A stretch of DNA of 63,862 nt, counting the filler, from Vannella sp. (lineage: Eukaryota), in the NCBI GenBank assembly GCA_023345925.1. It is 7 parts of 7 records of this genome, joined end to end, with 100 filler letters (N's around TTAATTAATTAA, not from the genome) between each part and the next. Parts side by side here need not be neighbours in the genome. Positions count along the whole stretch, not along the records: positions 23,274 to 30,949 come from JAJQQN010000114.1; 6 more parts are not named here. One strand, given 5' to 3'. The notes under the pieces are model-generated. The model was not told where the DNA came from and did no database searches. It saw only the letters and a list, made by a program, of their open reading frames with translations. The position numbers and the translations under genes were made by a program. This document shows positions 1,370 through 30,949 of this stretch, piece after piece. Numbering within the stretch: the first letter of the stretch is position 1; the number at the start of each line of letters is the position of its first letter.

Positions 1370-4300
1370 TCATTTACAGCTTCTGGAGCGCATCCGCTTG
1401 TGTTTGGAGGAAACTCCCTTCTTTGAGGGCTTGTCTCCCTCCAGCTCGGCAGGGGATGGTTCAGAGTCCGAGTCAGACAGAGCGTCAGATATGCGGCCTT
1501 CTCCCCAAACACACAAAACACCGCGACGGTCGGCACTCCAAATCACTCCAAAACCAGCTTCGAGAAGGCAAGTGATTGTGTCTTCGTGGTCCCCTTTCAG
1601 CTCTTGAAGGCAGCGTAAGTTCTCTGGCTTCCATAGGAGAATAGTTGTGTCAAAAGAGGCAGACCAAATGCGCTTTCCCGCCTCAATAATGCAAACCACT
1701 TTGCTCGTATGTCCTTCAAGCTCCCGCTCTAATCGTAGGGTCTATGGCTGATTAGTAGGGCGGGGGAGAATGTTGATACGTACATTACAGTCCCAGATGC
1801 GTATCTTGTCATTGCAAGCCACCCACATCTTGCCAAGAGACGGAGCCATGTCAAAGGCAATATTCACATCAAACCTTCGGACTTGCGCATTGGTTTGGCA
1901 GTCAAAAAGGCAAATAGAGCGGTAAAGACCTAACCACACATATTTGCCAAAGTGGGAAATGCACGTGATTGGTTCCTCCATTCTGATTTGGTGCGTTAAG
2001 CGCGACGTCTAGGTTCCAGTCTCATTAGCGTTGTGATGAATGGTCAGGAGGCCTACATTAATGTTCCAGATGCATGCTAATCCATCAACATCGCCAGACC
2101 AAACGTAGGAATCATCGGGGCTGACAGATACCCACTGGAGATTTCGGATTAGACTCTGGTGAGGGTCTCGAAGTGTGCACAAATTGTCGTAGTTCTTGGA
2201 GTCCCACACTTTGATATTCGACCCTGAGCTCCATACAGAGCCTTCCACTAGAGCCATAGCCTGGACTCGGTCCTCATGAGCAGGAAATTTGTGTACTACC
2301 GTTCTTGTCTGCGTTTAGAGTTAATCTCTCTACTCATCAATGAAAAGGATGTTAAGTTACCATTACATCCCAGATGATGATGAATCCATCAGAGAGCCCT
2401 GTCCAGATTTTGGAGCCGACTAGAATCATTGAATAGATTCCTGCGGACTGTCCTTTCGGCAAACGGATTGTTTCCAAACACTGAACGCGAAGCATCGATT
2501 CCCAGCTTCGTTCAAGCTTGTCGGTCGCGATATTGAGAGGATGTTGCGAAGACAGTTGCATTGGCAAGTTCCGGATGTTGTGTCCACTGGACCCAGGTGC
2601 CGAAACCTCCACTCCCGAGGAGCGGTCGCTGGGGAACATCTTTCGCATCAACCTAGACAGAATTTGGACTGACTCTTCAAAGGATGGACGTTCTTTGGGG
2701 TTAGTTTTCCAACAATTCTTGATGAGTTGTGCTAACTCCTCCGGGCAATCTCCAGGAACGGTTGGTCGGAGATTCTCGTGAATAATTTGGTGTTTGATTT
2801 GCATTTCTCGAATGGTTTCTTCGTACTCGAAGAAGGGAGCGTCGCGTGTGACTACTTCCCACATAACTATAGCAAAGGAGTAGATATCAGCTGTTTGGTC
2901 GTAATATACATTGGATACATCAATAACTTCGGGTGCTAACCACCGCCATGTTGGAAGAAAGCCACCTACTCGGTGTTCCACTCTCATAGATAATCCAAAG
3001 TCCGCTACTTTTGCTACAACAAACGAGGAAGGGTTCTGGCTCATCATAAAGATATTTGGAGAGCGAAGATCTCTGTGAATAATCGGTGGGGTGACGCTTT
3101 GTAAGTAGCGCATTCCTTTGGCGATGTCTAAGATAATGCGGATACGCAATTTCCAGTCGATAACTGCATCCGAAAGGAGGAAATGAAACAAATCACTTTC
3201 AGGGCACCATTCCATCACCATTCGAAGATGGGGTTTGATGGTAATGCCATACAATCGAACGAGATTGGTATGATTCAATCCGCTCATAATCCCCACCTCT
3301 CGTTGGAACTCCTTGAATCGGTCCATTGCCGTCTCCGCGTCTTCACCAGGATCTGCCTTGAGTTCTTTGATAGCAACTTGGACGTTACTACCAAAAATGC
3401 CTCGGAAAACCAAGCCAAAAGCCCCTGAACCAACCTGTTCCTCGACTTGCAGATCCTCTTCGCTGATTATCGCAAAGTCTTTGAAAGCCATATCAGGGGC
3501 AAGATAGCAGATGTTAACTGGGCGAGTTGGTACGCCACGACAATAGACAAATGATTTACCATTTGTGATGGCGGTCACGCACTCCTCGTAGGTAAAATGG
3601 TAAGGACCAAGGAGGATATCTCCTAATTCAACACAATGACAGCAGGGCACCAAACGGGAGACCGCATCCTGGTTCCCAGGGTAGAAAGAGTCGAGAATGG
3701 ACTCGACCATTTCGACAAGAAGGCGAAGGAACACGAGCTCCCTATCTGCATAGGAGCTGCGTGATGCGCGTACTTGAATTGTTAGTCGGCACGCTTTAGG
3801 CTTCCATTCAATATTGGCTATCTCTTGGATCTCTGATGAGGACTCCTCGCCCTCATTGCTCCTGGCACGCGCTTGAAGATACATTCCGTTCTTCCAGTAT
3901 TGTAGAACAGTGATATGGCGGAGAGCAAAGATCCGTGCGATCAATTTACTGAAGTCGAACTCAAAGTTGAAGCGATAGACTCTTCCAAACTGATATTCAT
4001 CCTCATTTGGAAGAGATTTCCACTCGAGCTGGTCTTTTAAGCTGGCGGGAGCCTCTTCTGGGAGTAGTGTAGGAATCACGTAGAACGCGGAGTCGCCTGA
4101 TCCCAACTTCACAGCAACTTCAAAGCGAGTCAGCAGACCAAGTAATGATTCATGGGACTCTAATGGAAATTGCTTCCATACTTGGGGAAGGATATCCAAA
4201 GTAAGGATGCCTGCTTTCACCCACTGGTGTTTGAAACTCACTAAACTGGCCATCACGTCTGCCAGCCATTGAGGATCAAGAATTACGTATTGGTCGAGTC

Positions 4301-6520
4301 CAGATTCCTTGCAATTGTAGTGCATAAGAGTGCCCACATCATGAAGAAAGTTGGTAACAACAGTCGTTTTCTCTGCAGGAATGCTGCATTCCCTAGCAAA
4401 GGTGCAATATTCATCCCATGATATGACTTGACGTGCGTTCTTCTCTTCTGTAAGAAGGCGGTCCAGCATGATGAAGGTTTCAGGCACTTTTTGTGTGATA
4501 GTTGCGTGAGAACTGGCAGTGTTCTTGAGCTCCTTCCAAAGCGTGCGGACTCCCTTATCGGTTCGCGCAGAGACAAAGAAAGTACCAACAATATTCCAGA
4601 CCTTTGAGGGGAAGCACGCACCCAGTGTCTCTGCAACTGTGTTTTGAAACGAAGAGGTGCATCGTTCCTCATCCAAATGTGTGCCAATCAGGAAGACTGG
4701 TGGCCTATCAGAGGATGTGGCACGAATTTGACGGAGCCAATAGCGTATGCGGGTTTCGTCAATGTTCACCATGTTGAAAATAACAAGGTAAATACTTCTG
4801 CTGGTTAGGAAGAATTGGTGCGTTTGGTAGAAAACCTAACCCAGGTTCAGAACGGCAAGGATTTTGTGAATTCGTCTACTCACTTGTTGCCCTGCAAAGT
4901 CCCAAGCAGAGAACTGCAAGTTTTCGCTCATGGAGAGCTCAGACACGTCTACTCCATCCGTTGAGACCGTATCAGGATCAGAACGAGGAGCAGATTTTGA
5001 TTTGCGAGAGCTCCCCTTCTTTGCGTGCCTCATACTCTTCAATGAACGTAAAAGAGCTTGTTTGGGTTAGTGCCTTGCTACCAAACTGAATAAGAGGAAC
5101 TCACTAGTCTTTCCAACACATTCTTCTCCCACCAGCATGAGTTTCATCTTCCGCCAGTCCGCAGAGTAACCGCTAATCTGGCGAAGATATTCTAACAAGC
5201 GCGACGTCCCTCTGGCAACAACCTCTTTGGGAATACTATGAAGAGAGTTTCCATCAAGGAATAGCTTCCGTAGTCGTAGGAGATGACCAAGCTCCTGAGG
5301 CAGAGCTGCCAACAAGTTATGAGACAAATCCAAGCGTTCTAACTGCACAAGAGCTGCCACTTCGCTCGGAATCTCGCGAATTCTATTTCCTGCCAGGACC
5401 AGTCGATTAAGGCCTTTGATGTTACAAAGCCCTTTGGGGAATTCAGTGAGCTCTGTGTTGGTCAAGTCCAAGTCACGGAGGCTCGCTAAAGCACTAATTT
5501 CGAAGGGGATAGTGCGAAGAGTATTGCAGCTGATATCCAGCCGTGTGAGACACCGCATCTGCGCGAGACCCATCGGAAACTCTTCAAGGTTGACTTGAGT
5601 AAGCTTGAGCTTAGTCAGAGTGAGGAAGCGCTCAGGCTTGATGCTCTTAAACCGGAGAAGATCTCCCAAAAGCAGGCGATCATTGGACTCAATGGCGATG
5701 TCCAGAGGTGTAACTGACTTCTCATCACTACCAAAGCGATAGATGCCGACAGGTGAGGGATCTGCACCGCTTTCTATCAGAAGGCGAGCAACATGCGTAT
5801 GCCCATGCTCCACAGCAAAGTGGAGTGCCGTCCAGGTGTCACAGGTCACTTCAGTGGCAGCTCTGTGAGTCAAAAGAAGCTTGCTCATCTCCACATCTCC
5901 TCGGATAGCGGCCATTTGCAAAGGAGTCTGCCCCCGGTCTGCTGTCGGACAGTTAGCGTCCGCGTGGTTCTCCAATAGCACAGCAGCCACATCCCTATGC
6001 CCTCTCTGTATAGCTATATGCAAAGGGAGATAGGATCCCTGGTGCCACCCTCCATTAGCAAGCTCCTCAAAGAGGAGTAAAACCAAACCCACCTGCAGCT
6101 GGTTCACCAGCTTGCCTAACTGAGAGAGGATGGTGACTTGCTCAACAAAGCCATTGGCTGCAGCTGAGTGGATGTCAATCGAGCTCTTGTTGGAGAAGTG
6201 GAGGGCGCTGAAGGTTTCCATTGCCATCCGGAGGGTCCACGCCTGGCTTGCCACTACTTGCCCATCACTCACCCGGATGGCACATCGTAGAAGACCTTCC
6301 TCCTCACGACCTAGTACCTCCTGGATCAAGGCCTCTGTGGTAGAGCGCCACAGTTGGTAGCACTCTGCCAAAAGTCAGTCATCCACTCTTCCCCCTCGCC
6401 CTGCTCACCATCGGTCCTCCCCTCATTGTAAAGTGGTGTTCCCGCTCTAATTGCATCAACTATGAGCTTCTTGCAGGCCTTCCCCACGTCTGGTTCCAGT
6501 GGAGGGACGATGGGGCTCAT
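1370..6520 (-). CDS. Roco (LRRK-like) kinase: ANK-LRR-Roc-COR-TKL kinase-WD40, multi-exon
   Basis: Ankyrin repeats (TPLQMAAIRGD), LRRs, Roc P-loop MKLMLVGEECVGKTT, WDFAGQ, COR (ILDPQWLADVM), kinase HRDLRSPN/DFG, C-terminal WD40s; short GT-AG introns join the listed ORFs. Confidence 0.92.
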
Positions 6521-7042
6521 TCGCCCTAATAATAATGATCCCCCGATGATTGATCAGTCCTTGACAAAGAAATAGGAATTTCAGCTCCTTTGCGAGTTTG
6601 CATCACAAAGCGAGTCCCGACATAATGTGACCAATCAGCGTCTGGCTTGGGAGAGGCGCGATCGCCTTGTTTGTGGGTTCGATACAAAGCAAGGAGGAAG
6701 TGGGTTTGTAGCATGTGCTTGAAAAGGGGTCCGCAAATGGGCCTTCTCCGTTCCTAGTGAATGGACAAAGTAGCCGGATGGGCCTCAATGCATCCACTCA
6801 CATCAGGTCCAGAAAACGGAAACTCCAAGTCTTCTGCTTCACACAAAAAGTAAAAAATCCCGCAATGCCCATAATGATCTGGGCGAAAGTGCTGAATGTG
6901 GTGCCGAAGGGCAGACTGTCAGGGTTGCGTGCTGATTAAACCTCCTAAGCCGTTCTTTAACATTCGCAGTATTTGTCCGATGAATCCTGACGATAACTCC
7001 TTAGAAGTCTGAACGCCTTTCTTTCCTCCTCTTTCTCCCTCG

Positions 7043-23273: not shown

Positions 23274-24083
23274 GTCCTAAGGCGGTATGCTACAAGTAGA
23301 TGAACCGTTGAAAGATTCGAGAGGGCATAGAATAGCTGGGGACTGGGAAGGCAGAATCTAAAGAAGTCCGCTCGCAAGGCAGTTGCAAGGATGAGACTCA
23401 TCCATCGCCAAACAGGGACTTGGACCTCCCACTTCATCCTCTCTAACTCACTGATGATATCCACTCGGACACCGAGACTCGAATGAAGTTGTGGCGGGAC
23501 ACCCGAGGGAATAGAGAACACTTGTTGCCTTGGCGAGCGGATGCTGCGCCTTCATTAGCTGACAGCAAGCCACTGAACCGGAGGGTACTTCAGCGATTAT
23601 TGGGTACTTGAATGGGCGTAGAACCGCGCAAAGGCCTCGTCGATCCTCATGCTCAAGTTGAGGCGCAGGCTGTTGTGCACCTGAGTGGGGGCAGAGAGAG
23701 AGAAGAAGAAGAGAGAGAATGTTAGGACTTATCACAACACAGGAAGCCGTTGTTTCTCTGTTTGGAGGCCCGCGTATCCATCTCTATTTTATCCGAGGAT
23801 GGATGCTCGCGCCACCTGCTCTCCGTACCTTCAACTGCTTAAGAGGACTGCAATAATACATATTGTATCAACACGATCCTCTAGCATGCCTCCACAACCT
23901 CACAAGGGAGAGAGACGAAGAACTTGTGCTTGCAATGACCGTGGAACAAAGGAGAGAGACCAGGAACTTGTTCTCGCTTCTGGCTTGCTCAAGAGAGGCT
24001 TCATGCTCATCTAAGTGAACAAAAAGGTAATTCCGAGCGTTAGTCCCTGATTAAGAGCCTCTCCGGTCTACTTTTTCTTGTCC

Positions 24084-27000
24084 ATGCGTCCTCAGCCACT
24101 TTTCTTCCTCGTCTGGCTCTTGGGCGTTGTTTGCCTTCTGCCTCAGCAAAAGGACTCCCTCCTTGCCCTTTACAATGCTACTGGCGGCCCTTACTGGACA
24201 CCAACCTGGAATACCCTAACGGACCCTTGCACTCCTCCGACAGCTTGGCTTGGTGTCAGCTGTGACCTTGCTAAAGCGAACGTCATTGGGCTTGATCTGA
24301 CTTGGAGAAACTTGACTGGCTCGCTCCCCGATCTGCAACTTCCGGCTCTCAACAGTTTGTTAGTCCGCTTCCTCTCGCCTGACACTTCGACCTCACTCAC
24401 TGATGGCTTACAGGGACTTGAAGTTTAACCAGATTAGCGGAACTCTTCCAGAATGGTCCAATCTGACGAGCCTGGTGAACATGTGAGTGCTTTCAGTCCC
24501 CTTCCACTCGAATGGAAGGAGATCACTTCATGGCACTAGCCTGATCAACAGCTCGCAGGGTCTTGCAAGTGAACCAGATCAGCGGAACTCTTCCAGTGTG
24601 GTCCAATCTGACAAGCCTGGTGAACATGTGAGTGCTTTCAGTCCTCTTCCACTCGGGTGGAAGAAGGAGACCACTTCATGGCACTCCCCTGATCAACGGC
24701 TTGCAGGAACTTGAACTCAAACCAGATCAGCGGAACTCTTCAAGAATGGCCCAATCTGACGAGGCTGAAGTTCATGTGAGTGCTTCCAGTCCTCTTCCAC
24801 TCAAAAGTGGGAAGGTGATCATTCCATCTTGTGGATATGAGCCACAAGTATGATCTTGACTCATCAATACCTTGCAGGAGATTGTCGTTGAACCAGATCA
24901 GCGGAACTCTTCCAGTATGGTCCAATCTGACGAGCCTGGTGACTATGTGAGTGCTTTCAGTCCCCTTCCACTCGAACAGGGGAAGGACGATTATCATAAC
25001 CGCATGAGATCTCACGCATCAATGGCTTGCAGGGACTTGTACAACAACCGAATCAGAGGAGCACTCAAAGAATGGCCCAATCTGGCGAATCTAAAGAAAA
25101 TGTGAGTGCTTCAGGTCTCTTCCACTCGAAAGAGGGAAGGAGATCGCTTCATTGCGTGGAAATGAGCGTCACAATCATGAAATCTCACTCATCGATACCT
25201 TGCAGAGACGTGGGAAACTGCACGATCAATGGAACACTTCCTGAATGGTCCAATCTGACGAACCTGACTGAAATGTGAGTAGTTTCAGTCCTCTTCTGCT
25301 CAAATGGAAAAAGACTATCACTTCATCACGTGGACATGAGCGCCACAGGCATGGGTTTACTCATCATACCTTGTAGAACCCTAGACGACAACCAAATCAG
25401 CGGGTCTCTTCCTGAATGGTCCTATCTGACGAACCTGCAAACAATGTGAGTAGTTTCAGTCCTTTTCTGCTCAAATGGGACAAGACTTTCACTTTATCAC
25501 GCGGACATGACGCCACAGGCATGAGTTTACTCATCGATACCTTGTAGATTCTTGGACATCAACCAGATCAGCGGGTCTCTTCCTGGATGGTCCAATCTGA
25601 CAGGATTGAGGGCTATGTGAGTAGTTTCAGTCCTCTTCTTCTCAAATAGGAAAAGACTGTCACTTCATCACGCGGACATGACGCCACATGCATGAGTTTA
25701 CTCACCGATACCTTGCAGAAACATAGAGGAAAACAAGATCAGCGGGTCTCTTCCTGAATGGTCCAATCTGACGAGTCTGACTGAAATGTGAGTGGTTTCG
25801 GTCCTCTTTTAAAATAGGATAGAAGAGGATCGCTTCCTTCATCTTGGGGACTTGAATGCCACATGCATGGCACTTAAGATGAGTTGACTCATCGATTCCT
25901 TGTAGATACTTGGCCGACAACCAGATCAGTGGGTCTCTTCCATTCTGGAGTGGATTGGGAAACCTCTCCAAAGTCTTTCTGGGAGGAACCAACCGTCTTT
26001 GTGGGAATCTGCCTCCCCGCTCGTACATTATCCCCTCCTTCAGTCTCTCTATTCAGCTTTTTAACTGCTCTTCTCTTCCTTATGGATACAGTTCAAGTGG
26101 AGCAACTTGCGATCCAATCACCGGACTGTGCCCTTCTTTAACAAGTTCAGCCACCCTCACAAGCTCTCCGTCGGCTTCATCCAGTGAGAGCCCCACTACT
26201 TCCACAACGCCCTCTTCGAGTGGTAGTGAACGTATGTCGACCTCTCCGTCTCTAAGCACCACTCCTTCCGTCTCCGAAACACCTACTTCAAGTGGGAGTG
26301 CGAGCTTGTCGAGTTCTCCTTCTCTTAGTGAAAGTCCCACAACTTCGATTACTCCCTCTTCGAGTGAGAGTGCAACTATGTCGAACTCTCCTTCTCTCAG
26401 TGCCAGTCCTTCTGTCTCCCAAACACCCTCTTCAAGCGGTAGTGCAAGTGCGTCAGGCTCTTCTTCTCTTAGTGAAAGTCCCACTGTTTCAAGGACGACC
26501 TCTGCGAGTGGAAGCGCAAGTGTGTCGGACTCACCTTCTCTCAGCACCAGTCCTTCTGTCTCCGAAACGCCCTCTTTGAGTGGTAGCACAAGTGCATCAG
26601 GCTCTCTTTCTTTAAGTGAAAGTCCCACTGCTTCGGAGACGACCTCATCGAGTTGTAGTGCAAGTGTATCTGGCTCTCCTTCCGAAACGCCCTCTTTGAG
26701 TCAAAGTGCAAGTGCGTCAGGCTCTCCTTTTTCAAGTGAAAGTCCCACTACTTCGGAGACGACCTCTCCGAGTGGAAGTGAAAGTGTGTCGAGCTCTCGT
26801 TCTCTCAGCGCCAGTCCTTCTGAAACACCCTCTTCGAGTGATAGCGCAAGTGTATCAAGCTCTCCTTCACTTAGTGAGAGTTCTACTACTTTGGGGACAA
26901 CCTCTTCGAGTGGTGGTGCAAGTGTGTCAGGATCTCCTTCTCTCAGCACCAGTCCTTCTGTCTCCGAAACGCCCTCTTCGAGTGGTAGCAAAAGTGCATC

Positions 27001-28399
27001 AGGCTCTCCTTCTTCAAGTGAAAGCCTCACTGCTTCGGAGACGACCTCTTCGAGTTGTAGTGCTAGTGTGTCGAGCTCTCCTTCTCTCAGCACCAGTCCT
27101 TCCGAAACGCCCTCTTCAAGTGGTAGCACAAGTGCATCAGGCTCTCCTTCTCTTAGCGAAAGTCCCACCAGTTCAGAGACGCCCTCTTCGAGTGAAAGTG
27201 CAAGTGTATCAAACTCTTTCTCCTTCAGTGCTAGTCCTTCTGTCTCCGAAACTCCCTCTTCGACTGGTAGCGGGAGCCTGTCAGGCTCTCCTTCCTTTAG
27301 TGGAAGTTCCACCAGTATGGAAATAGTCTCCTTGAGCCGTATTGCTTCAGCAACGCCATCTTTGAGTGGTAGTGGGAGTTTGTCAAGCTCTGCTTCTCTC
27401 AACGAGAGCCCTTCTGTTACTTATTCAGCAACATCCTCTTCCAGCGATAGTGCATATCCTTCTGCAACTTTGATTGATAGTGAAAGCTCATCAAGCTCTC
27501 CCTCTTTGATTATCAGCCTCACTAGTTCGAGCGAGGCTTCTGTTCCCATCCCTCTCAATGAGACAGAGACTTCTACAACAAGTCCCTCTTTGAGCCTCAG
27601 AGACAGCGCACCTTCTCTTTTAATCAGTAGCGCAACCACCATTCCGAGGAGCCCTTTAACATCTGCCAGCGAATCTCTCCTTCCAAGTGAGAGCAGCTTG
27701 CCATCGAGAAGTCCATCTGCTATTGTTTCTCCTCCAAGTACTCCCTCATTAATTGTCAACATTATCATTCCCACCAACTCCAAATCCAACGAGTTGGTGG
27801 GGCTCTCCGGCTTGCCTGGAGAAGGCGCAGTGGGAGCCCTTTTTATCCCTCCCAACTTGAGCAACCAAGCCAACACCACTTTAATCACTTCCTACATAGG
27901 CGGTGGAGTTGGTGACTCGTCCAACGGGCAAGTTCTGGCGAGCAGTGTCCTGAATATCACCCTTTTGGACGGACAAGGCAACTCCATCACACAATTGGAA
28001 TCGCCGCTTACCATCTGTTTGGCCCTCCCCAACAACACCAAGAAAGGAGAGAGGGTGTGTTTGAGCTACTTTGACGAGGAGAAAAAGAAATGGAGATGCG
28101 AAGACGAGTGTCTCACCAGTACTGCAAAAAGCAACGTTGCAAATGCTGGAAGCAGTGCCAAGGAGAAGGGCAACTTTCTGTGCGGCCAAACGGGCCATCT
28201 CACTAACTTTGCCCTTTTGTTGGCAGGAAATGGAAATGGGGAGGATCCTTGCCAGTCTGGTAACACAGACAGAACCCTTGCATGGGTGTCACTGGGAATG
28301 GTGGCAGGGGCCATCCTTGTGGTTGCTCTTTGTGGATTGGTGGTCGAAGTGCGCATTCGAAGGAGAACGTGGCTTTTAGCTGCTTTATTGAGTAAGTGA
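24084..28399 (+). CDS. Cell-surface LRR receptor-like protein: signal peptide, LRRNT, about 10 LRRs, Ser/Thr stalk, GPS-like motif, single TM
   Basis: LLALYNATGGPYW...DPC...WLGVSC cap; nine 69-nt phase-2 exons (24414-24482, 24559-24627, 24707-24775, 24878-24946, 25033-25101, 25206-25274, 25377-25445, 25548-25616, 25719-25787); terminal exon 25906-28399 with CGQTGHLTNFALLL and a TM segment. Confidence 0.9.
24359..25905 (+). repeat. Tandem exon+intron units (about 145-190 bp) of the LRR gene
   Basis: Paralogous introns begin gtgagt(gc/ag)tttcagtcc and mostly end ...ccttg(c/t)ag. Confidence 0.9.
26140..27420 (+). repeat. Ser/Thr-rich coding repeats (SPSLSESPT / SPSVSETPSSSGS)
   Basis: Degenerate repeats within the mucin-like stalk. 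Confidence 0.85.
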
Positions 28400-28976
28400 C
28401 CCTTCACAGGTCCCTTTCCAGGCCACTCACTTGAATGGGTGAAACAGAACAGATCGAATCGATGAATACGCCCATCCAGCCCGCCCTTTGAACCTCAAAG
28501 AAGAGTAAAACTAACCTTCTCAAAGATATGAATCAGAAGTGGCTCGGGCTTGAACTCGAATCATAGAGAGGTTGACAGAGAGACTGCACTCGATGGAGAT
28601 GTTGATAGGAAGACCACACCGTGGCGAGATCTGGCCATGAATAGCTCTTTGATGAAGAGAAGCTCGGAAAGGTATTTGACAAGGGACTGGTTACGCCCAT
28701 CATAGAGACGGTACCCATGGGACATGGCTTACTTGCAATATATTCACTGATTGAGTGTAACCTATTTGACACTTCAAAGAACCCGAAAGAGGGATCTCTT
28801 TTTTCGCTGGCTATGCCTCTGATGTTGGGAGGTGCTGCATTGGAAGGGATTCTCGCTGCTCGTGACTTTTCTCTTTCATCTTTATTGGGATGAAATCGTC
28901 GACGCCACCTTGTTCAGTATTTTGGAAAAAGATCCATTCTATTCATCAACTCCTTCTTGAGACCTTTTCAACAAGA

Positions 28977-30619
28977 ATGCTGATTATTAGTCCATTCCTT
29001 TCATTTTTGGGTGGCAAGGAGGGATGAGCGACTGGCAGAGGAGGGTTTCTGTCGCTCTTTCTAGGGGATCTGGGACGGATTAAAGCGTACTTTAAGGAAC
29101 ACCCCGAAAGGATCAACACCTTTGTTTGTCTCTCTTGTTCGCTGATCCGGCTGTGGGATCTGAGAAGAGGGCAACAGTTTGTGGGTTTAGATTTCGTGAC
29201 AAAGGCAGCTACTTTCTGACCTGCGTTTGTGTAGGAAGTAAGTGTCACAAAGGCCCCACTTTTGGTTGGGCTTTGCAGCAGCTAACGATGCGAAGGAGGT
29301 ACGAAGTCAAAAAGAAACATCACAAAGTCACCAACGCATCCTCGATAGCCTGTAAGGAATCAAACCGGCTTCTACAGCAGGGATAGGTCCACAGTCAAAG
29401 CCTTACCAGACACACTTAGGGAGTGAGAGCAAAGAGGAGTCATTATTTGGTGAACTGACTTTTAGGCGGTACCCTACCACCTTTTGGCTCGTTAATGCAG
29501 ATCCTGAATGGAGGGATTGGTTAGGGGGTACGCACTCCCCCTCCAAATGATACGTATTGACCAGAATAATGAAAAGGGGGTAAGCTTCAACATAGAGTTA
29601 TCCTTCAAGAGTGTGTCCCCAGAATTGTAATGCAGTCATTCATGCGTGTAGTTGGTAAGAGTCTCCCAGGAAGGTTGACTTGATCCTCAAATACTAATCC
29701 GGAAGTCTTAAATAGTTGGTAAGACATTTACTTGACTGGATCTTTTGAAGTGGAAGACTCTGAAAGATCGTTTAGTGTGTAAGTCTATCTCTTTTCTGTG
29801 GCGAAAACCAACGTTTCTAGACCATGCTTGGATTCGCCACATTTTCAGGATGGACTCAAATAGTCCAGTTTCTGCTTACCATCAGGGGAATCGACGCTCA
29901 ACTGGGAGTAAGTTCCCCTCCTTACCTTGTGTGATATTCAGGGAGCAAGCTTAGGAAGTGCGTGTCATCCAATTGATGAAATCAAGATCATTGACCTTTA
30001 GGGATCATTAGAAGGTACAATTCTCCTCAAGAGGTAAATTCTAAGCACGTTTTAGCACGTAAGTGATTCCCTACAGAACGGGTATCCCTAAACAGGTGCT
30101 TCAAAGAGGGTACTTGCCCACGGTTCTCACCAGAATGAATCTCTGACTTTCATAGATTGTAAGCGACCCTTCATCGAAGGACTTCTTTTTGACGCTTTCC
30201 AGTGGAAGAATGTGAGTACAGCTTCATCGAGCTTCACTTTCAAGATCTGAATGCCGCAATCCCTTTAGATTGTAAGTAGAATGACCTACCATTGCATCGC
30301 CAACAATCCCTTTCTTCAGTTGGTAAGGTCTTCTGGCTGTTGAGAGATGAATGAATGAATGGAATGAATCAGAGCCCACTGGACTCAGCCCTCAAAAACC
30401 GAAATTCTGAGCTTGCTAGGATCCTTTGGGAGGCGAACGGTAGATGTGTACAAGTGCGTTACTTTTGAGAGATAACAAATCTGACTTACGATCAGGAGCA
30501 ACAGCAGTTGAACCACTATCTTTCTCACTCCTGGGTGGAGAAAGAAGACAATCAAGATTGGTGCAATGGTGAGAAACTGCTGGTTATTTCAAACTTGTCT
30601 AACAAATATAGTGGTTTGA
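28977..30619 (+). CDS. Ankyrin-repeat protein with CaaX end, built with 19 single-codon microexons (5' end uncertain)
   Basis: Spliced product ...GDLGRIKAYFKEHPERINTF[FEEPGAGGLLC]TMLGFATFSGWTQIVQFLLTIRGIDAQLG[EKHRINIL]SPLDSALKNRNSELARILWEANGRCVQEQQQLNHYLSHSWVEKEDNQDWCNVV*; larger exons at about 29065-29123, 29821-29907, 30373-30453, 30496-30568 and 30612-30619. Confidence 0.85.
29178..29778 (+). other. Microexon array 1: eleven 3-nt exons
   Basis: AG|NNN|GT at 29178 TTT, 29235 GAA, 29296 GAG, 29349 CCT, 29420 GGA, 29466 GCG, 29525 GGG, 29577 GGG, 29652 TTG, 29716 TTG, 29776 TGT; introns 42-72 nt. Confidence 0.85.
29955..30322 (+). other. Microexon array 2: eight 3-nt exons
   Basis: AG|NNN|GT at 29955 GAA, 30012 AAG, 30056 CAC, 30107 AGG, 30156 ATT, 30209 AAT, 30269 ATT, 30320 TTG; introns 41-57 nt. 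Confidence 0.85.
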
Positions 30620-30883
30620 TAATCTCTATCAGCCAGCAAAGGTCTCCTTATGAACCTCATAAACTTGATGTCAGCAACGTGATTCCTGAATCGGGAAAAC
30701 TTGTCCCAAACAACAGTTCGGTGCCTTCTTCCATTTCAATTCTTCTTATCAACACGATCTGAACGATTATCTTTCTGTTTGAACACCATTTTTCAAAGGG
30801 GCTCCACTTTGGACTCGTTTCTGGTTCGCCAATCACGAATCACTTCCCCCTCGCATCACTTCCCTGCTGGGACGATTTTAGAA

Positions 30884-30949
30884 GCCCGTCTAGCTCAGTT
30901 GGTAGAGCGTACGGCTTTTAACCGTATGGTCGAGGGTTCGAGCCCCTCG
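30884..30949 (+). tRNA. tRNA-Lys(UUU), 3' end cut by contig break
   Basis: GCCCGTCTAGCTCAGTTGGTAGAGC, anticodon stem TACGG-CTTTTAA-CCGTA, T-arm GAGGGTTCGAGCCCCTC. Confidence 0.95.

What the first reader, a model, noticed from the sequence alone, without database searches (positions are those of the whole stretch)
29124..30372. Microexon arrays could generate combinatorial loop diversity (antibody/DARPin-like repertoire by splicing)
Seen: any subset of the phase-0 codon exons keeps the frame and adds no stop. This gives up to 2^11 x 2^8 = 2^19 splice patterns, with fewer distinct peptides because E, G, L and I recur. Established: the ankyrin consensus has about 7 residues between the N of GADVN and the T of TPLH. 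Full inclusion gives 13 in loop 1, and loop 2 is about 3 residues over-long, so each array holds more codons than a canonical loop needs (about 5). An in-frame alternative acceptor at 30202 would turn AAT into TGG-AAG-AAT. Inference: exon skipping yields a hypervariable recognition surface, loosely analogous to Dscam or schistosome micro-exon genes but at single-residue resolution.
Basis: inference. Interest (0 to 1): 0.88.

Follow-up and report, generated by a model that had tools for sequence, protein, structure and literature searches.

The report
Single-codon exon arrays in amoeba ankyrin
A small ankyrin-repeat gene, likely from a Vannella-like amoeba, spells the two loops between its repeats with 19 separate one-codon exons, and skipping some of them would likely let one gene make many loop variants, a trick reported before from truffle immune-receptor genes.

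Summary
The arrays are real: 11 and 8 three-base, phase-0 exons between 41-72 nt GT-AG introns, placed in the two loops between ankyrin repeats (22 AG-NNN-GTR sites against 2.8 expected, maximum 10 in 2000 shuffles). The host is likely a vannellid amoeba (eIF4A tree; contig composition).

Skipping is inferred, not observed. For: full inclusion gives loops of 13 and 10 residues, whereas 418 of 617 related loops have 7; the order of array 1 fits the canonical loop. Against: array 2 lacks glycine and no subset rebuilds a canonical turn; Drosophila sowah 3-nt exons are constitutive; the best-fitting start codon is out of frame, so this copy may be broken. The ceiling is 161,280 peptides (7,293 at canonical length), not 2^19.

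The mechanism is not new. New here are the amoebozoan host and a stand-alone ankyrin without NACHT; my searches found no report in Amoebozoa. 'Antibody-like' recognition has no direct support. Verdict: new variant of a known kind.

The parts
29024..29064 (+). Ambiguous 5' end. An ATG at 29024 opens a frame that fits an ankyrin N-cap helix but is out of frame with the next exon at the G4 run 29064-29067; alternatively an ATG at 28977 with a 54-nt intron 29011-29064 (weak donor)
   Evidence: first-helix score -6.4 for the out-of-frame reading (above the 95th percentile, -7.2, of 759 null segments) versus -22.2 for the intron model (null mean -20.1)
29065..29123 (+). Exon for the second helix of the capping repeat and the start of loop 1
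   Evidence: no Pfam match on its own; ankyrin likeness read by eye and from register
29178..29778 (+). Array 1: eleven 3-nt phase-0 exons starting at 29178 (Phe), 29235 (Glu), 29296 (Glu), 29349 (Pro), 29420 (Gly), 29466 (Ala), 29525 (Gly), 29577 (Gly), 29652 (Leu), 29716 (Leu), 29776 (Cys); flanking introns 42-72 nt
29565..29579 (+). Possible 15-nt form of the 29577 exon from an upstream in-frame CAG acceptor (adds four codons)
   Evidence: inferred only
29821..29907 (+). 87-nt phase-0 exon: one ankyrin helix-turn-helix and the start of loop 2
   Evidence: Pfam Ank_3 E 0.068, below cut-off; 17 weak PDB matches, mostly DARPins and other ankyrin-type proteins; 133 matches at E<=0.001, mostly long multi-repeat proteins; Atlas ankyrin clusters at 0.92-0.93 with low recognition; core score 32 bits
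29955..30322 (+). Array 2: eight 3-nt phase-0 exons starting at 29955 (Glu), 30012 (Lys), 30056 (His), 30107 (Arg), 30156 (Ile), 30209 (Asn), 30269 (Ile), 30320 (Leu); flanking introns 41-57 nt
30203..30211 (+). 9-nt form of the 30209 exon (Trp-Lys-Asn) from the CAG acceptor ending at 30202; it is the first AG after a branch-point-like site, so it may be the preferred form
   Evidence: preference inferred from the first-AG rule (established knowledge)
30373..30453 (+). Exon for the last ankyrin repeat; donor uncertain (30440, 30448 or 30454)
   Evidence: core score 8.5 bits; no Pfam match
30496..30762 (+). Likely last exon(s): an 88-codon open frame of unknown nature; exact splicing unresolved
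   Evidence: no match in Pfam

Best explanation
This is a small stand-alone ankyrin-repeat gene, likely of a vannellid amoeba, whose two inter-repeat hairpin loops are encoded by arrays of 11 and 8 one-codon exons that are likely included in varying subsets, so that one gene would yield many proteins with the same helices and different loops. Shown: the exon-intron layout, phase 0 throughout, intact splice signals, position in the loops, over-long loops at full inclusion. Inferred: a 3-nt exon is too short for both flanking spliceosomes to sit at once, so introns are removed one after another, and a donor sometimes pairs with the next-but-one acceptor across a 92-136 nt composite intron; skipping keeps the frame, whereas retention of 19 of the 21 introns destroys it, so viable mRNAs differ only in which codons they keep. 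Inferred: the arrays grew by tandem duplication of exon-plus-intron units. Inferred, weakest: the loops form a variable binding surface inside the cell, for example against ingested bacteria or viruses, as proposed for the truffle genes.
For: Loop surplus: among 617 loops from 133 related ankyrin proteins, 418 have 7 residues between the Asn and the next repeat, 30 have 10 or more, 19 have 13 or more; full inclusion gives 13 and 10. Repeat period at full inclusion is 37, against 33-34 in 871 of 1331 periods. Array 1 order gives better canonical-loop scores than shuffled orders (p = 0.009, 2000 permutations); its best 5-codon subsets put Gly at the position where 261 of 383 natural loops have it, while full inclusion puts Leu there. 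Retention breaks the frame in 19 of 21 introns. Introns of 102-104 nt are predicted in the neighbouring LRR gene, the size of a single skip. Adjacent introns are slightly more alike than distant ones (p = 0.044). One-codon exon chains occur nowhere else in the window outside a coding tandem repeat. [quoted passage not shown] Host: window eIF4A falls in a 100/100 clade of 14 rows with Vannella robusta; the array contig matches the other contigs in tetranucleotide use (r 0.83-0.88 versus at most 0.44 for 21 outside loci).
Against: Skipping is not observed in any data seen here. Array 2 has no Gly, only 1.8% of its 5-codon subsets reach the 10th percentile of natural loops, and its order is no better than shuffled (p = 0.44); for array 1 the best subset is no better than under shuffling (p = 0.55). 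Long loops do occur naturally (30 of 617), and the comparison set is biased to long multi-repeat proteins. Two 3-nt exons of Drosophila sowah are listed as constitutive. A canonical loop 1 needs 6 of 11 exons skipped, which means many separate skips or composite introns longer than any measured next door. The N-cap reading is out of frame. No paralogue or orthologue turned up: 0 of 65 metagenome loci, and the best identity among 133 protein hits is 54%, so no family expansion is shown. One member of the eIF4A clade is labelled Chloropicon, so the host rests on one named amoeba and one gene on another contig.
Confidence: 0.55

Rival explanations
1. Constitutive splicing: all 19 codons are always included and build two long but fixed loops, as for the tiny exons of Drosophila sowah; the introns are tolerated or serve timing or regulation.
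For: Strong donors on nearly all exons; sowah 3-nt exons ME2 and ME3 are on the constitutive sheet; 30 of 617 natural loops are 10 residues or longer; array 2 subsets do not rebuild a canonical loop; short-intron genomes usually skip exons rarely (established knowledge).
Against: Both loops are over-long at once (about 5% and 3% of natural loops); full inclusion misplaces the Gly of loop 1; it leaves unexplained why every loop codon, and no helix codon, has its own exon.
Confidence: 0.25
2. Decayed or null copy: the arrays once worked by either mechanism, but this copy carries a frameshift near the start and makes no protein.
For: The ATG at 29024 fits an ankyrin N-cap better than 95% of null segments yet is out of frame; the in-frame alternative has a weak donor and scores like noise. 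The 3' end is also unresolved.
Against: All 21 introns keep GT-AG and strong donors although their interiors share little sequence, which argues against long decay; the modelled exons have no stop; an assembly slip in a G run or a real upstream intron would remove the problem.
Confidence: 0.1
3. DNA-level diversification: transcripts are uniform, but the introns let single codons be gained, lost or exchanged between alleles and paralogues by unequal crossing-over, so that the loop varies across the population rather than within a cell.
For: Phase-0 symmetry permits it; weak likeness of adjacent introns; the neighbouring LRR gene has one repeat per 69-nt exon with similar introns.
Against: Introns in the arrays are too diverged for frequent unequal crossing-over: no tandem repeat is detected there and the best intron pair reaches only z 4.6 among 210 pairs; no paralogue was found.
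Confidence: 0.08
4. Chance pattern in non-coding DNA, or a contig from another organism such as a fungus.
For: None of the exons passes a Pfam cut-off on its own.
Against: Shuffle and consensus statistics; ankyrin exons in one frame on both sides of the arrays; composition matches the other contigs.
Confidence: 0.02

Closest known systems
Tuber melanosporum nank (NACHT-ankyrin) NLR genes, Iotti et al. 2012 (paper not held; known here only from passages of PMC4986451, PMC10197012, PMC13449251, PMC3689799, PMC9815663)
   Same: Ankyrin-containing gene with tens of 3-bp codon-sized mini-exons; alternative splicing is reported there to diversify the C-terminal recognition domain.
   Different: Here the host is likely an amoeba, the gene is short and has no room for a NACHT domain, no expanded family is shown, and splicing is untested. 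Whether the truffle exons sit in the same hairpin loops could not be read.
Drosophila sowah microexons (PMC8042270 Tables S4 and S5)
   Different: Two 3-nt exons plus 6- and 12-nt ones, all four listed as constitutive; here 19 consecutive codon exons exceed the canonical loop length. Orthology not tested.
Schistosoma mansoni micro-exon genes (MEGs) (abstract start of bioRxiv 10.1101/2023.06.21.545858)
   Same: Runs of short symmetric exons that can be skipped in frame.
   Different: MEGs are secreted proteins with exons of 3-81 bp and introns up to 5 kb; here the exons are single codons confined to two loops of a folded repeat domain, with introns of about 50 nt.
Dscam1 exon clusters (recalled) and Ectocarpus repeat-exon shuffling (citing passages)
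   Same: Combinatorial variation of a recognition surface built from duplicated exon cassettes.
   Different: Those swap whole half-domains or repeats, mutually exclusively or at DNA level; here the unit is one residue and the loop length would vary too.

Membership tests
Ankyrin-repeat proteins | 33-34 residue helix-turn-helix repeat with the TPLH-type start and conserved Gly | tested here: met
   Middle exon: Ank_3 E 0.068, below cut-off; 133 matches at E<=0.001; core score 32 bits; Atlas ankyrin clusters. The flanking repeats are weaker (8.5 bits; cap by register only).
Tuber nank (NACHT-ANK) genes | Tens of 3-bp mini-exons | tested here: met
   19 exons of 3 nt
Tuber nank (NACHT-ANK) genes | NACHT domain upstream of the ankyrin repeats | tested here: not met
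   The gene lies between an ORF ending at 28399 and a tRNA at 30884; about 600 nt precede it, and the longest frame there and the 3' frame give no Pfam match
Tuber nank (NACHT-ANK) genes | Demonstrated alternative splicing of the mini-exons | not testable with these tools
   No transcript of this gene could be examined
Tuber nank (NACHT-ANK) genes | Expanded paralogous family | tested here: inconclusive
   No genome held; 0 of 65 metagenome loci are relatives, with a pattern of low sensitivity that did not return the window's own contig
Schistosome micro-exon genes | Secreted protein coded mostly by symmetric exons of 3-81 bp separated by long introns | tested here: not met
   Introns 41-72 nt; microexons give only 19 codons of the protein; secretion not tested, start codon uncertain
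Dscam-type mutually exclusive clusters | One exon chosen per cluster through docking-selector pairing | not tested
   Choosing one exon would give loops of 3 residues, rare in nature (4 of 617); no pairing elements were sought
Sowah family | Orthology to sowah and constitutive loop microexons | not tested
   Only the constitutive status in Drosophila was checked; no sowah sequence was compared

The most novel reading that the evidence does not exclude
An amoeba has independently evolved a splicing-based loop library: a free ankyrin scaffold whose two binding hairpins are assembled residue by residue from 19 optional one-codon exons, giving thousands of variants within one cell for recognising prey, symbionts or viruses, convergent with truffle NLRs but without an NLR.
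Probability: 0.33. Interest if true: 0.85.

Novelty: new variant of a known kind. Interest (0 to 1): 0.62.

Why it matters
If skipping is confirmed, single-residue diversification by splicing, so far reported from one truffle gene family, arose in a second eukaryotic supergroup and again on ankyrin repeats, here on a compact 1.7-kb gene that can be tested with one amplicon. That makes an open question directly testable: whether single-celled eukaryotes generate variable receptors somatically. Even if splicing is constitutive, the gene is an extreme test of how a spliceosome handles consecutive 3-nt exons, and it shows a gene class that standard annotation misses entirely.

Tried and rejected
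Whole genome: none held. Sequencing runs: no RNA holder was listed for 28900-30900; this is no evidence either way, and it left nothing to lay reads from. Searches with single exons were limited by their length, and the spliced protein could not be used as a query, so close relatives may have been missed. The 30-residue search returned only generic multi-repeat ankyrins, best identity 54%. The 3' open frame found nothing: Pfam, Atlas no usable hit, 134 candidates and none at E<=10 among proteins of 155-2000 residues; an SH3- or TIR-like look by eye was therefore dropped. Metagenome scan: 0 of 65 loci have an ankyrin exon after a codon array. The long AG-NNN-GT chains at about 26200-27200 lie in the Ser-rich coding tandem repeat and are not exons. 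Recent tandem duplication of the arrays was rejected. A candidate Gly exon with a GC donor in intron 13 was set aside: it would leave a 34-nt upstream intron, shorter than any of the 21. No structure was predicted, because isolated exons are too short to fold meaningfully. Literature: no report of such arrays in Amoebozoa in searches (open-access library only; Iotti 2012 and its supplements unseen, and they could show that loop placement is already described).

Full report
Setting. The window is seven contigs joined by N-linkers. The finding lies on the contig 23274-30949, between an LRR / Ser-rich / membrane-anchored gene ending at 28399 and a tRNA cut by the contig end at 30884-30949. The eIF4A of another contig is 86% identical to Vannella robusta and groups with it in a 100/100 clade of 14 rows, in a tree of 30 chosen from the 120 listed hits; one row of that clade is labelled Chloropicon, which I read as an amoebal contaminant (inference). 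The array contig agrees with the rest of the window in tetranucleotide use (r 0.83 with repeats removed, 0.88 whole; at most 0.44 for 21 outside loci of similar GC). The host is thus likely a vannellid amoeba, on one gene and on composition.

Observation. On the + strand, 11 and 8 AG-NNN-GT units follow each other at regular spacing. All 21 introns are GT-AG and 41-72 nt long. The region holds 22 AG-NNN-GTR sites against 2.8 expected (maximum 10 in 2000 shuffles), only length 3 is enriched among lengths 0-9, and a chain of 11 was never reached. GTRAG is the donor of 12 of the 19 exons and occurs at 0 of the 60 GT sites outside the model. Joined in a script, the exons give an open frame reading cap helix, loop 1, repeat, loop 2, repeat. 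The middle exon is an ankyrin repeat by four weak but agreeing tests. The weakest elements are intron 1 and the 29178 exon. The in-frame acceptor at 30202 exists and may be the preferred one; a second in-frame alternative precedes the 29577 exon. The repertoire ceiling is 161,280 peptides, 7,293 at canonical length.

Is inclusion variable? No transcript could be examined, so the case is indirect. From the 133 proteins I measured 1331 repeat periods and 617 loops with a recognisable Asn. Seven residues is the mode (418 of 617); 10 or more occurs in 30, 13 or more in 19. Full inclusion gives 13 and 10, so both arrays hold surplus codons. In array 1 the order of codons (acidic, then Gly-rich, then hydrophobic) fits the canonical loop better than shuffled orders (p = 0.009), and 20% of 5-codon subsets reach the 10th percentile of natural loops. 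Array 2 does not behave this way: no Gly, p = 0.44, 1.8% of subsets. The comparison set leans to long regular repeat proteins, and a long fixed loop could show the same order. Retaining an intron breaks the frame in 19 of 21 cases, while a single skip needs a 92-136 nt intron, like the 102-104 nt introns predicted next door. Adjacent introns are weakly more alike than distant ones (p = 0.044), which fits old tandem duplication. I put variable inclusion at 0.55, constitutive inclusion at 0.25, a null copy at 0.10, DNA-level shuffling at 0.08 and chance at 0.02.

The start is ambiguous. An ATG at 29024 gives a helix that fits the ankyrin cap better than 95% of 759 null segments but is out of frame with the next exon at a run of four G; the in-frame alternative needs a weak donor and scores like noise. 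This copy may be a null allele, or the assembly may have slipped. Intact splice sites amid diverged intron interiors argue against long decay.

Relatives. None was found. An ankyrin-anchored pattern that matches the window in its stricter form gave 65 metagenome loci, none with an ankyrin exon after a codon array; the pattern is insensitive by my estimate and did not return the window's own contig. Two of the 65 hold non-repetitive codon-exon arrays without ankyrin in fungal-looking contigs (L189, L211), so the architecture is more widespread than print suggests.

Comparison with what is known. [quoted passage not shown] 2012 (PMC4986451; PMC10197012; PMC13449251; PMC3689799; PMC9815663). The original is not held. 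This gene likely works like those but is not a member: it has no NACHT domain and a different host. Isolated exons of 3 nt or less are common enough in a mushroom (89 gene models; passage of PMC12230235), but not as arrays in that passage. Schistosome MEGs were seen as a search listing and abstract start; Dscam is recalled. Searches found no report of such arrays in Amoebozoa. Earlier notes of this scan record codon-exon arrays in two fungi and a flagellate; they are unchecked leads, not support.

Verdict. Real feature; new variant of a known kind. Interest 0.62; 0.85 if skipping is shown.

Noticed in passing
window 24084-28399 (+): Neighbouring gene: LRR N-terminal cap, then nine 69-nt exons each coding one leucine-rich repeat with variation concentrated in the first residues, similar introns, a long Ser-rich stalk and a membrane anchor. 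A one-repeat-per-exon cassette beside the microexon gene; its C-terminal part has three unnamed relatives at 47-61%. The first LRR exon boundary and frame were not resolved.
   Followed up: partly
L189 11-2309 (+): Fungal-looking contig with at least 29 one-codon exons (chains of 8 and 21; about 35 if non-canonical donors are admitted), acidic codons first, then Lys/Leu/Phe; no ankyrin; a copia-type gag lies downstream.
   Followed up: partly
L211 4060-5470 (+): Fungal-looking contig with a chain of about 22 one-codon exons between clearly homologous introns, starting right after a two-codon first exon; two decayed units appear near 6520-6710.
   Followed up: partly
window 30884-30949 (+): tRNA cut at its 3' end by the contig end (missed by ARAGORN); the anticodon reads as Lys by eye.
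   Followed up: yes
window 29065-29130 (+): The frame shifted by one base over the first exon also contains an ankyrin-like Gly-x-Thr-Pro-Leu stretch; probably chance, since it leads to a stop.
   Followed up: no
window 2352-6374 (-): Ankyrin / LRR / Roco-like kinase gene typical of amoebae, read from the ORF list only.
   Followed up: no
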